35,618 bases of DNA. It comes from Candidatus Omnitrophota bacterium (GTDB lineage: Bacteria > Omnitrophota > Gorgyraeia > Duberdicusellales > 4484-171). Within the stretch, counting starts at the first letter, position 1; each line of letters starts with the position of its first letter. Below, one piece after another: positions 10,061 to 35,618 of the stretch. The notes under the pieces are model-generated. The model had not been told where the DNA came from, made no database searches, and saw only the letters and a program-made list of their open reading frames with translations. The position numbers and the translations under genes were made by a program. Location: the NCBI GenBank assembly GCA_046484225.1, contig JAWOBO010000038.1, forward strand, positions 1 to 35,618, read 5' to 3'.

Positions 10061-10948
10061 ATGGAAGTTAATGTCAAAAAAATTGATAAGCTAAAACACA
10101 AATTAGATATAAAATTAACTGGAAAAGAGTTTACTGACAAAAAAGACAAATTTTATGATCAAGCTTCAAAAAAGTTAAAAGTACCTGGTTTCAGGCCCGG
10201 AAAAGCACCTCTCAACCTAATTAAAAAACATCACGAAAAAACACTTAAAGATGAGTTTATAAAACAACACCTCCCGGTAATTTACCAACAAGCTTTAGAA
10301 CAAAGTGAAATTACACCTGCAGGACTTCCTCAGGTTTCTGATATAAAAATAACCGACCAAGCTCTCAGTTTTGTGGCTGAACTAGAGATACAACCAAAAA
10401 TTGAGATAAAAGAAAGCACTTATAAAGGCATAAAAATCAAAGATCAAAAAACTTCACCTGACTCTAAACAGGTAGAAGAAATGATAAAAAAGTTTAAAGA
10501 AGAGGTCAAAAAGATAACTAAAAAAGAGTTTGATGATCAAAAATTAGCTAAGTGGGCTTCTTATCCGGATATGAATTCCTTCAAAGATGCGATCAATACT
10601 CAGCTTCATCTTGACAGCTTACAAAAAAGAAGGCAAAATATTGATAATCAAATAAAAACTCATCTTCTTAAGTCTATCAAGGTTGAAGTACCAAAGGCAG
10701 AAATAGAAAGATACCACAAACAGTTAGTAGATCGACAAATGCAACAACTACAACAACAGGGAGTAAAACAGCAGGATTTAGAGAAGTATAAGGCTGATTT
10801 TGAAAAAAAATTAGAACCTATGGCTGAAGATGAAGTAAAATTTTTCTATATTTTACGAGCAATTGCAAAAAAAGAAAAAATAAAGGAAGACCGGGGAATG
10901 GCTGAAGCCGTACTAGGTCTTATCTTGAGCGAAGCAAACTTTAAGTAA
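10061..10948 (+). CDS. tig: Trigger factor lacking the FKBP PPIase domain
   Basis: Ribosome-binding signature VPGFRPGKAP, YKGIKI linker, C-terminal helical domain (IAKKEKI); only 295 aa; upstream of clpP. Confidence 0.88.
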   Translation: MEVNVKKIDKLKHKLDIKLTGKEFTDKKDKFYDQASKKLKVPGFRPGKAPLNLIKKHHEKTLKDEFIKQHLPVIYQQALEQSEITPAGLPQVSDIKITDQALSFVAELEIQPKIEIKESTYKGIKIKDQKTSPDSKQVEEMIKKFKEEVKKITKKEFDDQKLAKWASYPDMNSFKDAINTQLHLDSLQKRRQNIDNQIKTHLLKSIKVEVPKAEIERYHKQLVDRQMQQLQQQGVKQQDLEKYKADFEKKLEPMAEDEVKFFYILRAIAKKEKIKEDRGMAEAVLGLILSEANFK

Positions 10949-33861: not shown

Positions 33862-34413
33862 ATGAAAATAAAAAAAATATTCTTTATTTTTCTTTTATTT
33901 TCAATCCTTTTCCATATTTTATTTTTTTTACAAGTTAATCTCACAATCACCAATAAACAAAAACCATACATCAACGCTTGGCCCAACCTTCTTAACAAAA
34001 TCGACCTATCATCCAAGTCACAAACAACTAAACTACCTAAAGGAATAAGTTTTTCTACGGGAAAAACAAGAAAAGCATACTTTTCAAAAGCTCTGCCTAA
34101 ATCTAATCAAAAATATAGTTTTAGCCAAGATTTAGATAGCTACATAAATTCTGAAAATTTATCTAAAAAATATGTAAAAAATAGGAGTAATATCTTTTTT
34201 TTATGGGAAAAAGAGCCTCGATTGACTGATAAAGGAAAATCAATACCTTACCGAGCTTTAGTTTCTCCTTACGGCAAAATTATCTTACTTTATCCGCAAA
34301 AACTCTCTTTAGATTCAGATAAAAATATATCTGGCCATAACCATCTTAAAGAATCTGCTTATTTTTTAGAAAAAAAGTTTTTCTGGACAAAATTTAACGT
34401 TTTAGTAGAATGA
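33862..34413 (+). CDS. Membrane-anchored protein, divergent TonB/TolA-like
   Basis: Follows exbD; N-terminal TM with Ser-x3-His (FSILFH); C-terminal ALVSPYGKI...LS loosely resembles a TonB C-terminal domain. Confidence 0.5.
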   Translation: MKIKKIFFIFLLFSILFHILFFLQVNLTITNKQKPYINAWPNLLNKIDLSSKSQTTKLPKGISFSTGKTRKAYFSKALPKSNQKYSFSQDLDSYINSENLSKKYVKNRSNIFFLWEKEPRLTDKGKSIPYRALVSPYGKIILLYPQKLSLDSDKNISGHNHLKESAYFLEKKFFWTKFNVLVE

Positions 34414-34634: not shown

Positions 34635-34853
34635 ATGGTAACCCAAATAGGAATCGTAGCTGGAGAAATTTGGAACTTTTTAGACGAGCACGGAGAAACA
34701 ACTCTAGATGAAATCACAAAAGGTATAGATAAACCGGAAAAATTAATATTAATGAGTTTAGGTTGGCTAGCTAGAGAAAAGCATGTAATAATTGCAGAAA
34801 AAAATAATACCTACCAGATAAACTTAAATCAGAAAAAACAAAAAATAAAATAA
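34635..34853 (+). CDS. Small winged-helix protein (DUF2582-like)
   Basis: IG..AGEIW..L...G and LGWLARE signatures; GAGGTGA SD. Confidence 0.85.
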   Translation: MVTQIGIVAGEIWNFLDEHGETTLDEITKGIDKPEKLILMSLGWLAREKHVIIAEKNNTYQINLNQKKQKIK

Positions 34854-34873
34854 AAACTCATTATCAGACAAAA

Positions 34874-35236
34874 ATGAAAAAAGGAGTGGTCTTAATTATT
34901 GTTTTTGCAGTATTAATTGTAATTTCTCTGCTTGCTATTACAGCAATAAATTTAATGCGCCAACAATCAAAGATAACCGAACATAAAATATCAAGGCGAA
35001 GGAAACTATTAGCAGCTCAAGCCGGCATGGTCCATGCTTATGAAGGATTAAGACGAGGGGTAGCAGCCCCTTATAATAATCCACTATCACCAACTAATAC
35101 TCGAATAACAGATGAAATATCAGATTTTGGTGAAACAGATATTACGATAGACATTGAAGTACTTCATAGTTCGCACGCTGACTGCGATTCTCCTTCTGGC
35201 GAATTATGTATAAAAGTAAATCCTAATTATGATTAG
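34874..35236 (+). CDS. PilX/GspK-like minor (pseudo)pilin
   Basis: MKKG-VVLIIV class III signal lacking Glu5, hydrophobic helix, AAQAG..A motif, C-terminal Cys pair. Confidence 0.7.
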   Translation: MKKGVVLIIVFAVLIVISLLAITAINLMRQQSKITEHKISRRRKLLAAQAGMVHAYEGLRRGVAAPYNNPLSPTNTRITDEISDFGETDITIDIEVLHSSHADCDSPSGELCIKVNPNYD

Positions 35237-35266
35237 AATCCATAGCCTTTCCTTTGTTAACAATCC

Positions 35267-35294
35267 TTGTTTTTTATCATAAATTAGTTAAAAT
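35267..35294 (+). promoter_or_regulatory. Putative sigma70 promoter for the tRNA
   Basis: TTGTTT (35267-35272), 16-nt spacer, TAAAAT (35289-35294). Confidence 0.4.
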
Positions 35295-35333
35295 GTTTCG
35301 ATACTATCAGCCATAAATATATTCTTTTTCAAT

Positions 35334-35486
35334 GGGGCCGTGGTGCAGTCCCGACGCTCGCACTTCGTGCTTGGTCGGGATCCCGATTTTTGACTTGTTA
35401 ATAAAATGATAGTGTCGAAACATCGGGGCTGGGAGAACGCCTGGTTCGCAATCAGGAGGTCAGGGGTTCAAATCCCCTTCGGTCCA
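35334..35486 (+). tRNA. tRNA-Ala(CGC) with an 80-nt insertion in the D-loop; CCA tail not encoded
   Basis: 5' part GGGGCCGTGGTGCAG (35334-35348). 3' part CTGGGA-GAAC-G-CCTGG-TT-CGC-AA-TCAGG-AGGTC-AGGGG-TTCAAAT-CCCCT-TCGGTCC-A (35429-35486). Joined length 73 nt, anticodon at 35447-35449. Confidence 0.85.
35349..35428 (+). other. Double-hairpin intervening sequence within tRNA-Ala
   Basis: Hairpin 1: TCCCGAC...GTCGGGA (35349-35380). Hairpin 2: TCCCGAT...ATCGGGG (35381-35428). Confidence 0.85.
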
Positions 35487-35521
35487 TAAAGTTTACATAA
35501 TTTTGATTTCTAAGTATACCT

Positions 35522-35618
35522 TGTCATTGCGAGCGAAATGAGTGAAACGAATGAAGCGAAGCAATCTCTAAAACAATAATAGAGATTGCTTCGTCGCTTC
35601 CTGCCTGCTGGCAGGCAG
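35522..35618. repeat. RPE/REP-like palindromic element with a nested second palindrome, cut by the window edge
   Basis: Starts TGTCATTGCGAG; perfect 14-bp stem CGAAGCAATCTCTA / TAGAGATTGCTTCG; then CTGCCTGC-TG-GCAGGCAG. Confidence 0.85.

What the first reader, a model, noticed from the sequence alone, without database searches (positions are those of the whole stretch)
35334..35486. tRNA-Ala(CGC) split by an 80-nt double-hairpin insert in the D-loop
Seen: removing 35349-35428 restores a 73-nt tRNA with the canonical Ala D-loop AGCTGGGA; the junction is at 15/16 or 14/15 because a G is shared. The insert is exactly two abutting hairpins that both open with TCCCGA and close with TCGGG(A/G). Established: known bacterial tRNA introns are self-splicing group I (anticodon loop) or group II, both much longer than 80 nt; short D-loop introns are an archaeal feature needing EndA and a bulge-helix-bulge, which I cannot see here. 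Inference: this is an unrecognised class of excised intervening sequence, a tRNA that works with a giant D-loop extension, or a palindromic mini-element that targets tRNA D-loops. Standard tRNA finders could miss such genes.
Basis: partly seen in the sequence, partly recalled or inferred. Interest (0 to 1): 0.85.

Follow-up and report, generated by a model that had tools for sequence, protein, structure and literature searches.

The report
Palindromic mini-element splitting a tRNA gene
The 80-base insert in this alanine tRNA gene is one copy of a widespread double-hairpin DNA repeat that lands in tRNA genes, and the gene it sits in is a mismatched hybrid that is probably dead, so it is most likely not a new kind of intron.

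Summary
A tRNA-Ala(CGC) is split at window 35349-35428 by an 80-nt insert ("E") that folds into two abutting hairpins. An uninterrupted orthologue in two same-genus genomes fixes the insertion point at G15|C16.

The intron reading is not supported.
- E is a dispersed element. This genome has four full copies (tRNA-Ala, tRNA-Met twice, tmRNA) and one half copy. Related copies occur in Omnitrophota, Patescibacteria and other phyla.
- It lies in either orientation relative to the tRNA and prefers WG|CW sites, above all the D arm. No target duplication was seen at the two sites with an empty orthologue.
- E-bearing tRNA copies are usually truncated, and an intact copy without E often lies nearby. 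Only 3 of 84 copies give a tRNA when E is removed.
- The window's gene is a hybrid. Its 5' 15 nt are the genus type. Its 3' 58 nt match another family's tRNA-Ala (56/58) but the genus type only 44/58. The acceptor stem pairs 5/7 and the D stem 3/4.
- No EndA homologue was found.

Best reading: a REP/MITE-like palindromic DNA element inserted in a probably dead hybrid tRNA copy.

Still open: whether insertion is coupled to the local duplication, and whether E is tolerated in RNA, since the only tmRNA gene carries it. No RNA data were available.

The parts
34874..35236 (+). Small upstream ORF (120 aa, hydrophobic N-terminus) that anchors the synteny with the relatives' tRNA-Ala(CGC) locus
   Evidence: ORF list. 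The DNA matches G001 at 89% over window 34701-35045. Alignment.
35293..35309 (+). Leader segment that is a 17-nt inverted repeat of 35407-35423 inside the insert (one G.U pair). Unexplained.
   Evidence: blastn, complementarity scan, and it forms the main helix of the minimum-energy fold of 35285-35490. The other three copies in this genome have no such partner.
35334..35348 (+). Native 5' piece of tRNA-Ala(CGC), nt 1-15 (acceptor 5' strand, U8, G9, D-stem 5' strand, A14, G15)
   Evidence: 15 of 15 identical to the uninterrupted genes of same-genus G001 and G006 at the syntenic place.
35349..35380 (+). Element E, hairpin 1: 7-bp outer stem TCCCGAC/GTCGGGA with a 4-bp inner stem
   Evidence: RNAalifold on 4 copies, single-sequence fold, 84-91% identical copies in C90 and C37.
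35381..35428 (+). Element E, hairpin 2: outer stem, bulged C, 7-bp inner stem that covaries between copies, and a variable loop
   Evidence: 6 of its 14 pairs show changes on both sides. Covariance model R1 scores this copy at 86.7 bits.
35429..35486 (+). 3' part of a tRNA-Ala(CGC), nt 16-73, of a type found in other families of the class. The anticodon and T stems are intact.
   Evidence: 56 of 58 identical to G148, 55 of 58 to G188, but only 44 of 58 to same-genus G001 and G006. Rfam tRNA hit.
35520..35618 (+). Copy of a second dispersed palindromic repeat (R2). The contig ends inside it.
   Evidence: blastn to many contigs of this genome.

Best explanation
The 80-nt insert is a non-autonomous, REP/MITE-like palindromic DNA element ("E"). 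It consists of two copies of one hairpin unit in opposite orientation, placed end to end. Elements of this family are dispersed in Omnitrophota, Patescibacteria and other phyla.

How it behaves (shown): it sits at short palindromic WG|CW sites, above all AG|CT. At the two sites where an empty orthologue is available it shows no target duplication. The conserved D arm of tRNA genes (TAG|CTCAG|CTGG) offers such sites, and the T loop and the tmRNA gene also carry copies.

Why we see it where we do (inferred): insertion into a needed tRNA gene is harmful. Copies therefore survive mainly in spare or displaced tRNA fragments, which are common next to intact tRNA genes in these genomes.

The window copy: E sits between nt 15 and 16 of a tRNA-Ala(CGC) that is itself a hybrid. 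Its first 15 nt are native. Its last 58 nt come from a tRNA-Ala lineage of other families, presumably brought in by recombination or by integration of foreign DNA at this tRNA locus. The hybrid has mismatched acceptor and D stems.

Consequence (inferred): this gene is most likely a dead remnant, not a spliced or working tRNA. GCG codons would then be read by the tRNA-Ala(UGC) that the genome also holds, which follows from standard wobble rules and was not tested here.

Not known: the enzyme that moves E.
For: E is a repeat family.
- blastn and covariance model R1 find four full copies in this genome: the window; C37:11834-11910 and C37:12299-12375 in tRNA-Met fragments; and C90:33606-33680 in the tmRNA gene. 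There is also a half copy after tRNA-Arg(TCT) on C9.
- R1 matches in 9 of 101 related genomes, this genome included.
- A motif scan of genome contigs gave at least 118 stretches in many phyla. R1 confirmed 66 distinct places in the 80 loci returned.

The structure is conserved. 25 pairs are predicted and 7 are compensatory.

It behaves as DNA, not as an RNA-level insert.
- It lies antisense to the tRNA in G003:C5 (L108) and on this genome's C9.
- It is a clean insertion with no target duplication at both sites that have an empty orthologue: the tRNA-Ala gene and the tmRNA gene, where E is absent from 4 same-genus genomes.
- Flank preference: G at -1 in 47 of 82 copies, C at +1 in 47 of 82, and AG|CT in 17 of 82. 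The two dinucleotides have background frequencies of 0.058 and 0.054.

It is associated with tRNA genes.
- 24 of 151 flanking 40-mers are tRNA-like, against 2 of 308 controls.
- 22 of 66 copies have an intact tRNA within 200 nt.
- In the closed genome of Ca. Velamenicoccus archaeovorus, 7 of 8 copies lie next to a tRNA gene.

E-bearing copies are spare copies.
- 13 of 66 have an uninterrupted copy of their junction within 1 kb, against 0 of 667 controls.
- Only 3 of 84 give a tRNA when E is removed.

The window gene is a hybrid.
- Its 5' 15 nt match the genus type 15 of 15.
- Its 3' 58 nt match the genus type 44 of 58, but G148 56 of 58.
- The two differences from G148 form a compensatory pair in the T stem.
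- The acceptor stem pairs 5 of 7 and the D stem 3 of 4. Both parental gene types pair 7 of 7 and 4 of 4.

Other points.
- tRNA-Ala(UGC) and tRNA-Ala(GGC) are present.
- No EndA homologue was found.
Against: - No transposase is linked to E. There was no R1 match within about 1.5 kb of 12 Y1_Tnp genes in 4 genomes.
- The only tmRNA gene in the assembly carries E, with both flanks well conserved. This suggests E can be tolerated or removed in an RNA.
- The truncated E-bearing copies end a consistent ~10 nt (range 5-21) past E. A pure selection filter does not predict that.
- The contig ends 190 nt after E, so a downstream intact tRNA-Ala(CGC) cannot be seen. The assembly holds no other one, and the genome is 89% complete.
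- The compensatory changes would also fit a constraint at the RNA level.
- Mobility itself was not observed. It is inferred from presence and absence between species.
Confidence: 0.6

Rival explanations
1. Coupled, self-healing insertion. E is the hairpin module of a small integrative unit that recombines inside tRNA genes. In the same event a segment of the target is duplicated, so an intact gene is always regenerated. The resulting layout is [long arm]-E-[short arm]-spacer-[long arm][short arm]-rest, or its mirror image. One way to get this is a single crossover with a small circle that carries E plus tRNA arms. On this reading the window copy is the displaced, E-bearing member of such a pair, and the working gene lies beyond the contig end.
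For: - 13 of 66 E copies have an uninterrupted junction paralogue within 1 kb, against 0 of 667 controls.
- In the closed Velamenicoccus genome the layout recurs at tRNA-Met, Thr, Val (twice), Gly and Asp: a tRNA 5' fragment of about 12 nt (with its leader duplicated too, where that is visible), then E, then a short piece of D loop, a spacer, and the intact tRNA.
- In 15 rows where E lies upstream of an intact tRNA and the junction falls after nt 10-13, the inner arm is 5-21 nt long, median about 10.
- G072 has an intact tRNA-Ala(CGC), then 25 nt, then a second copy with E at 12|13.
- The tRNA-Met arrangement is shared by this genome and G003, and a similar site is used in L113.
- This genome's other tRNA-linked hairpin modules are flanked by 18-55-nt direct repeats of the tRNA 3' end.
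- The native 3' end and the native downstream flank of the Ala gene lie on another contig, C31.
Against: - The tmRNA copy and the Ala 5' junction are simple insertions with no visible duplication.
- E lies inside one repeat copy, not between the two copies, which no standard transposition or integrase scheme gives directly.
- No integrase or other enzyme lies next to the copies I looked at.
- The arms of some fragments have diverged from the neighbouring gene. Older, independent duplications followed by E insertion would look the same.
- The window shows no intact paralogue.
Confidence: 0.2
2. RNA-level reading. E is transcribed as part of the tRNA and tmRNA. It is then either tolerated as a protruding double hairpin at a permissive site, or cut out by an unknown nuclease and the halves rejoined (for example by RtcB). 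This would make it an unrecognised bacterial intervening sequence.
For: - The single tmRNA gene of the assembly carries E, with both flanks 93-94% identical to G003 and G004. In the Rfam alignment E takes the place of the top of a helix after the tag reading frame.
- In the tRNA, E lies between nt 15 and 16, at the start of the length-variable part of the D loop (my own knowledge of tRNA structure).
- The anticodon and T stems of the 3' part are perfect.
- 7 of 25 E pairs are compensatory.
- An RtcB fragment is present.
- A weak promoter-like site lies upstream at 35257-35285, matching 9 of 12 consensus positions.
Against: - The acceptor and D stems are mismatched even after E is removed.
- No bulge-helix-bulge is visible in the fold.
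- No EndA homologue was found, although the genome is only 89% complete.
- RtcB is common in bacteria (10 of 14 control genomes), so its presence says little.
- E occurs antisense to tRNAs and in intergenic places.
- 81 of 84 copies do not restore a tRNA when removed.
- The other E-bearing tRNA copies in this genome are truncated and lie beside an intact gene without E.
Confidence: 0.12
3. Assembly chimera. The last 190 nt of the contig, which hold the foreign-type 3' part, come from another Omnitrophota population in the sample and were joined to this locus by the assembler through a shared copy of E.
For: - The foreign-type part and everything after it fill exactly the last 190 nt of the contig.
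- Other contigs of this assembly overlap their neighbours by 191 nt.
- The 3' part is 56 of 58 identical to a gene of another family.
- No sequencing run held more than 0.19 of the sampled words, so the join could not be checked.
Against: - If the 191-nt overlaps reflect the assembler's word length, then single words span leader, 5' piece, E and the whole 3' part. An 80-nt repeat could not cause a false join at that word length.
- This E copy differs from every other copy in the genome by about 10% or more.
- E insertions at tRNA-Met and tmRNA rest on independent comparisons with other genomes.
- Even if this reading were true, E would still sit at nt 15|16 of the native gene.
Confidence: 0.05

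Closest known systems
REP / BIME / REPIN palindromic repeats, including the CGTC-tagged REPs of Di Nocera et al. 2013 (PMC3733652; passages read)
   Same: - Short GC-rich hairpin units dispersed in many copies and many phyla.
- Often arranged as inverted dimers.
- Each E unit has an unpaired C just before GTCGG, so it reads CGTC.
- Like the CGTC REPs described in that paper, E has no transposase gene flanked by the repeat.
   Different: - The CGTC REPs in that paper have 8-9-bp stems that begin with A-T pairs, 4-5-nt loops and a short tail. They are mostly extragenic.
- E units have a 7-bp outer stem plus an inner helix.
- E units abut with no spacer.
- E units sit preferentially inside tRNA and tmRNA genes or their fragments.
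- No RAYT linkage was found.
- I did not test sequence relatedness to any named REP family.
Rickettsia palindromic elements (RPE)
   Same: Palindromic mini-elements that insert into genes for functional products. [quoted passage not shown] This genome's tmRNA gene carries E in the same way.
   Different: - RPEs are known mainly from in-frame insertions in protein-coding genes of one genus.
- E is linked to tRNA genes and to local tRNA fragment duplications, and it is spread over several phyla.
- Sequence similarity was not tested.
IS200/IS605-type elements and their miniature derivatives (mechanism recalled, not read here)
   Same: No target duplication at the sites where this could be checked, insertion next to a short specific sequence, and hairpins at both ends.
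   Different: - No Y1 transposase gene carries E-like ends (0 matches near 12 genes).
- The E target is symmetric (WG|CW), and E lies in the middle of it rather than 3' of an asymmetric tetranucleotide.
Integrative elements that recombine in tRNA and tmRNA genes and leave a duplicated gene fragment (recalled general knowledge; the integrase sublocation classes are also recalled)
   Same: A partial tRNA copy next to an intact one. A hybrid gene whose far part comes from the incoming DNA. The anticodon loop, T loop and D arm are used as break points.
   Different: - Here the units are only 60-300 nt long and carry no integrase.
- Many duplicate the 5' part of the tRNA rather than the 3' part.
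- E lies inside the displaced copy, about 10 nt from its end.
Archaeal non-canonical tRNA introns (bulge-helix-bulge, EndA) and bacterial group I introns in tRNA
   Same: An intervening sequence inside a tRNA gene, at a D-loop position that archaeal non-canonical introns can use (recalled).
   Different: - No bulge-helix-bulge.
- No EndA homologue.
- No Rfam intron family matched.
- Not in the anticodon loop.
- Occurs antisense and outside tRNAs.

Membership tests
Archaeal-type (BHB/EndA) tRNA intron | Bulge-helix-bulge motif spanning both exon-intron junctions | tested here: not met
   The minimum-energy and centroid folds of 35285-35490 and of the insert alone show two self-contained hairpins. 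No helix pairs the two junctions with 3-nt bulges.
Archaeal-type (BHB/EndA) tRNA intron | Splicing endonuclease (tRNA_int_endo, PF01974) encoded in the genome | tested here: not met
   0 matches in this genome at E <= 0.01. The control search hit 4 archaea. Caveat: the genome is 89% complete.
Archaeal-type (BHB/EndA) tRNA intron | Removal of the insert restores a canonical, fully paired tRNA | tested here: not met
   Acceptor stem 5 of 7 and D stem 3 of 4 in canonical register. ARAGORN needs a shifted start and a 1-nt linker before the D stem.
Group I intron in a bacterial tRNA | Group I ribozyme core, located in the anticodon loop | tested here: not met
   No Rfam intron family matched, even at E <= 10, in 35200-35618. 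The insert is 80 nt long and lies in the D loop.
REP / REPIN with RAYT | Short palindromic unit, many dispersed copies, often as inverted dimers | tested here: met
   The two hairpins share the outer stem TCCCGAC/GTCGGGA, with the unpaired C on opposite strands.
REP / REPIN with RAYT | A RAYT (Y1 transposase) gene flanked by the same repeats | tested here: not met
   Y1_Tnp genes exist: 4 in this genome and 9 in three other genomes. R1 with filters off finds 0 matches at E <= 1 in the 12 loci fetched around them. The fourth gene of this genome, on C2, was not fetched.
REP / REPIN with RAYT | Extragenic location | tested here: not met
   All four full copies in this genome lie inside tRNA or tmRNA genes or their fragments.
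IS200/IS605-derived miniature element | Insertion without target duplication next to a fixed short sequence | tested here: inconclusive
   No duplication at the Ala and tmRNA sites. The flank preference WG|CW is symmetric, unlike the asymmetric targets I recall for this family.
IS200/IS605-derived miniature element | An autonomous relative with matching ends | tested here: not met
   (0 matches).
tRNA-targeting integrative element (att duplication) | Direct repeat of a tRNA segment on both sides of the inserted DNA, with one intact gene | tested here: inconclusive
   Met for many E copies elsewhere. It cannot be seen for the window copy, because the contig ends 190 nt after E. The native 3' end lies on C31.
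tRNA-targeting integrative element (att duplication) | A recombinase gene carried by or next to the unit | not tested
   Four Phage_integrase genes exist in the genome. None is in the window's last 5.6 kb by ORF size and position, but those ORFs were not searched against Pfam.
Rickettsia palindromic elements | Sequence or profile similarity to RPE families | not tested
   Only the behaviour was compared.

The most novel reading that the evidence does not exclude
E-type double hairpins may be a previously undescribed kind of tRNA-gene-targeting mobile unit whose insertion is mechanically coupled to a short local duplication. The duplication always leaves one intact tRNA gene, so the insertion heals itself. 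That would explain how one element family can colonise essential tRNA genes across Omnitrophota, Patescibacteria and other phyla. The E-bearing leaders it creates upstream of tRNA genes, and the E copy in the tmRNA, might also be used at the RNA level.
Probability: 0.25. Interest if true: 0.75.

Novelty: new variant of a known kind. Interest (0 to 1): 0.55.

Why it matters
For annotation:
- The split tRNA-Ala(CGC) should be treated as a disrupted hybrid copy. It is neither a missed working gene nor evidence for bacterial D-loop introns.
- In these small genomes, tRNA finders will skip such copies. Partial tRNA hits next to hairpins should be expected.

For biology:
- One hairpin family is tied to tRNA genes in several phyla of mostly uncultured bacteria.
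- It recurs in a stereotyped layout: fragment, E, about 10 nt, spacer, intact gene.
- I could not find this described in the searches I ran.

If insertion and duplication are coupled, this is a new way for selfish DNA to live inside essential RNA genes without killing the host. It could also drive tRNA gene hybrids between lineages, as seen here.

Tried and rejected
RNA or read evidence. The look-up of sequencing runs listed no RNA holder, and no run held more than 0.19 of the sampled words. I therefore did not use read laying. Expression, splicing and the assembly join remain untested.

A second E at 15|16 of a tRNA-Ala. A degenerate junction pattern matched 17 of 401 class genomes, this genome included. 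That is about as often as the reversed control pattern, and no hit looked like E next to a tRNA-Ala D loop. I treat this as no further instance found among those searched.

A guide-like role for the variable hairpin 2.
- The window copy has a 17-nt complement in its own leader. The Met and tmRNA copies have none, so I dropped the idea.
- 11-12-nt G.U-rich complementarity to the T arm in the Ala and Met copies is weak, and I did not pursue it.

A group I intron after the anticodon of the truncated tRNA-Met copy. Rfam found none at E <= 1 in L001, and the downstream unit is a complete tRNA, not a 3' exon.

RAYT linkage. Tested and not found.

The loose empty-site test (2 mismatches and boundary slack) gave 29 of 77 against 32 of 352 controls. 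The controls were inflated by simple repeats. I replaced it with the strict test: 13 of 66 against 0 of 667, with 11 low-complexity junctions skipped.

In the arm-length script, 11 of 38 rows were self-alignments, because E lay within 30 nt of the intact gene. I ignored those rows. The "15 of 22" figure quoted elsewhere in this report is my hand count from the remaining rows with E upstream of an intact tRNA.

Literature. Eight full-text searches found no description of hairpin elements tied to tRNA gene fragments in Omnitrophota or Patescibacteria.
- I read passages only of PMC3733652, PMC3812714 (irrelevant), PMC10066038, bioRxiv 10.64898/2026.06.07.730766 and PMC1458961.
- Supplements were not opened.
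- Subscription journals are not covered.

Not used: protein homology searches, structure prediction, complex prediction, the protein atlas, and the phage, plasmid and E. coli collections.
Full report
**1. The observation**

The window is contig C82 of a 1.16-Mb assembly in 98 contigs, with 35% G+C and 89% estimated completeness. One of its same-genus relatives (G003) is a genome titled Candidatus Omnitrophota, because locus L108 is the same stretch as G003:C5.

- ARAGORN finds no tRNA in the window.
- Rfam finds a weak tRNA at 35426-35486 (37.5 bits), with the D arm deleted in the alignment.
- When 35349-35428 is removed by coordinates, ARAGORN calls tRNA-Ala(cgc) in 66 of 72 junction variants.
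- The insert alone folds into two abutting hairpins: -36.1 kcal/mol, z = -5.29, and 0 of 200 shuffles fold as well.

**2. The insertion point**

The same small gene (window 34874-35236) is followed by an uninterrupted tRNA-Ala(CGC) in 6 of the 9 syntenic loci fetched. In same-genus G001 and G006 this gene is identical between the two genomes. Its first 15 nt equal window 35334-35348 and run straight on as ...GTGCAG|CTGGGAG.... The insert therefore lies between nt 15 and 16, with no target duplication.

**3. The insert is a repeat family ("E")**

- blastn and reading show the same double hairpin in the tmRNA gene (C90:33606-33680) and twice at the tRNA-Met locus (C37:11834-11910 and C37:12299-12375).
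- In an alignment of the four copies, RNAalifold predicts 25 pairs, and 7 of them show changes on both sides.
- Hairpin 1 is conserved. The inner stem and loop of hairpin 2 vary between copies.
- The two hairpins share the outer stem TCCCGAC/GTCGGGA, with an unpaired C before GTCGG on opposite strands. E is therefore an inverted dimer of one unit.
- Covariance model R1 finds only these four places in this genome. A half copy, one hairpin only, lies after tRNA-Arg(TCT) on C9.
- R1 matches in 9 of 101 related genomes, this genome included.
- A motif scan of genome contigs returned at least 118 stretches from Omnitrophota, Patescibacteria, Margulisbacteria/WOR-1, Chitinophagaceae, Gammaproteobacteria, Planctomycetota, Mycobacterium and others. 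R1 confirmed 66 distinct places in the 80 loci returned.

**4. Where E sits**

- Of 151 flanking 40-mers, 24 resemble a tRNA, against 2 of 308 control 40-mers from the same loci.
- 22 of 66 copies have an intact tRNA within 200 nt.
- The flanks prefer WG|CW: G at -1 in 47 of 82 copies, C at +1 in 47 of 82, and AG|CT in 17 of 82. The two dinucleotides have background frequencies of 0.058 and 0.054.
- The conserved D arm of tRNAs offers exactly such sites. In 15 rows with E upstream of an intact tRNA, the junction falls after tRNA nt 10-13. Other copies lie at 26|27, in the anticodon stem, in the T loop, or at 65|66.
- E lies antisense to the tRNA in G003:C5 (L108) and on this genome's C9, and sense in the four full copies of this genome.
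- Some copies are intergenic, for example after terminator-like hairpins in G100.

**5. E-bearing tRNA copies are mostly spare copies**

At this genome's tRNA-Met locus there are three units:
- a 5' fragment (nt 1-26, then E, then nt 27-36) that then diverges;
- 290 nt further on, an intact gene without E;
- 12 nt after that, a 5'-truncated copy with E.

G003 shares the first two units but lacks the third, so this is not an assembly artefact.

In the closed genome of Ca. Velamenicoccus archaeovorus, 7 of 8 E places lie next to a tRNA gene.
- Six of them have this layout: a tRNA 5' fragment of about 12 nt (with its leader duplicated too, where that is visible), then E, then a short piece of D loop, then a spacer, then the intact tRNA. 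The genes are Met, Thr, Val (twice), Gly and Asp.
- The seventh is a 3' fragment with E in the T loop.

G072 has an intact tRNA-Ala(CGC), then 25 nt, then a second copy with E at 12|13.

Across all copies:
- 13 of 66 have an uninterrupted copy of their 18-nt junction within 1 kb, against 0 of 667 controls.
- Only 3 of 84 give an ARAGORN tRNA across the junction when E is removed: the window, G072, and this genome's third tRNA-Met unit.

**6. The window's gene is a hybrid**

- The 5' 15 nt match the genus type 15 of 15.
- The 3' 58 nt match the genus type only 44 of 58, although the two genus genes are identical to each other.
- The same 58 nt match the intact tRNA-Ala(CGC) of G148 at 56 of 58 and of G188 at 55 of 58. 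Both belong to other families of the class.
- The two differences from G148 form a compensatory pair in the T stem.
- Those genes have a different 5' part, which pairs perfectly with this 3' part (7 of 7 in the acceptor stem, 4 of 4 in the D stem).
- The window's combination pairs only 5 of 7 and 3 of 4. ARAGORN accepts it only with a shifted start, a U.U mismatch and a 1-nt linker.
- The crossover between the two types can only be placed within nt 13-22, which the two types share. E sits at 15|16 inside that stretch. Whether E took part in the recombination or arrived later cannot be told.
- The native 3' end and the native downstream flank lie on contig C31, behind two tandem copies of another hairpin module.
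- The window contig ends 190 nt after E, inside a second dispersed repeat. The assembly holds no other tRNA-Ala(CGC), but it does hold tRNA-Ala(UGC) and tRNA-Ala(GGC).

**7. The tmRNA copy**

E is a clean 75-nt insertion that is absent from four same-genus tmRNA genes. Both flanks are conserved (93-94% identical in G003 and G004; 78-89% in G006 and G002), and there is no duplication. In the Rfam alignment E takes the place of the top of a helix after the tag reading frame. It is the only tmRNA gene in the assembly. This is the best argument that E can be tolerated in an RNA. There is a published parallel: one Rickettsia palindromic element lies in the tmRNA gene of R. bellii (PMC1458961; passage read).

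**8. Enzymes**

- No EndA homologue was found.
- One RtcB fragment is present. RtcB is common in bacteria.
- Four Y1-transposase-like ORFs are present, and four tyrosine recombinases.
- R1 finds no E within the 12 loci fetched around Y1_Tnp genes of four genomes. The REPtron layout is therefore not met. In that respect E resembles the CGTC-tagged REPs, for which no dedicated transposase is known (PMC3733652; passages read).

**9. Reading**

The evidence fits a palindromic DNA element that inserts at WG|CW sites, for which tRNA D arms are the richest source. It survives in spare or displaced tRNA copies.

The window shows such a copy in a hybrid tRNA-Ala that is probably not functional (confidence 0.6).

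The stereotyped layout, with an inner arm of about 10 nt, keeps open a coupled self-healing insertion mechanism (0.2). Tolerance or excision at the RNA level (0.12) and an assembly chimera (0.05) remain possible.

The mechanisms I quote for IS200/IS605 elements, REPINs and integrase sublocation classes are recalled, not read here.

**10. Limits**

- No RNA or read data were available.
- Mobility is inferred from presence and absence between species.
- Related genomes are samples, and many are incomplete.
- The literature searches cover open-access text only.

Noticed in passing
G000 C12:1360-1513, C38:11614-11754, C59:402-543, C74:2442-2574, C33 (after tRNA-Leu(CAA), minus strand), C69:7622-7805, C31:29757-29529 (minus strand): A second family of mini-modules, about 65-125 nt long, sits after tRNA genes (Glu, Ser, Val, Gly, Leu, Gln twice, Ala twice). 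In most, an AT-rich part is followed by a closing stem with one or two hairpins. The module abuts a direct repeat of the tRNA 3' end that starts in the T loop. The repeat is 18-55 nt long and sometimes runs into the downstream flank.
   Followed up: partly
G000 C7:2480-2618 and C33 upstream of tRNA-Leu(CAA) at 10420-10502 (minus strand): Both tRNA-Leu genes are preceded, about 120-135 nt upstream, by a copy of their first 13-16 nt. Directly after that copy comes a third hairpin element (TAAGAAC...GTTCTT) and then a promoter-like AT-rich stretch.
   Followed up: partly
L176 (G148:C128, reverse strand), locus positions about 300-1560: A 5' fragment of tRNA-Ala(CGC) (nt 1-38, ending in the anticodon loop) lies 1.15 kb upstream of the intact gene, with a repeat-rich ORF in between. 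The duplicated part is the 5' part of the tRNA, which is the opposite polarity to classical 3'-end att duplications.
   Followed up: no
window 35293-35309 and 35407-35423: A 17-nt inverted repeat (one G.U pair) joins the tRNA leader to the 3' half of hairpin 2 of E. It encloses the 5' tRNA piece and hairpin 1 and dominates the predicted RNA fold. The other copies have no such partner.
   Followed up: partly
window 35520-35618, and many G000 contigs (C87, C31:1-38, C81, C92, C55, C84, C48, C36, C63, C80, C38, C33): A dispersed palindromic repeat of the CATTGCGAG...GAAGCAATC type. It also flanks the tmRNA gene on both sides (C90:33299-33334 and 33905-33940). Contigs tend to end in it.
   Followed up: partly
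L165, L168 (Ca. Velamenicoccus archaeovorus, around 1,966,000 and 1,073,300): Further 5' tRNA fragments in tandem carry other double-hairpin types (TCCGCC...GGCGGA plus CCCGCC...GGCGGG, and TCCCTCGGG...CCCTCGGGA) at the same D-arm position. Several hairpin families therefore use the same site.
   Followed up: no
G003:C5:35600-35929: A Y1-transposase-like gene (234-aa frame) lies about 140 nt downstream of the tmRNA gene of G003. No E-like hairpin is nearby.
   Followed up: partly
G000 C50:6785-7261 and C50:7418-7505: A tyrosine recombinase gene lies about 150 nt from tRNA-Ser(GGA), the usual look of an integrated element at a tRNA gene.
   Followed up: no
G000 contig ends: C37 end = C8 (reverse) start; C90 end = C73 start: Neighbouring contigs overlap by exactly 191 nt, so contig ends mark branch points of the assembly graph. 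Three of the four full E copies in this genome (the window, C37:12299-12375 and C90) lie within 300 nt of a contig end; C37:11834-11910 lies about 640 nt from one.
   Followed up: partly
L068, L070, L062, L037, L078, L088 (genome-contig loci): The flanks of several E copies look like protein-coding sequence, which suggests intragenic insertions of the kind known for Rickettsia palindromic elements. Frames were not checked.
   Followed up: no
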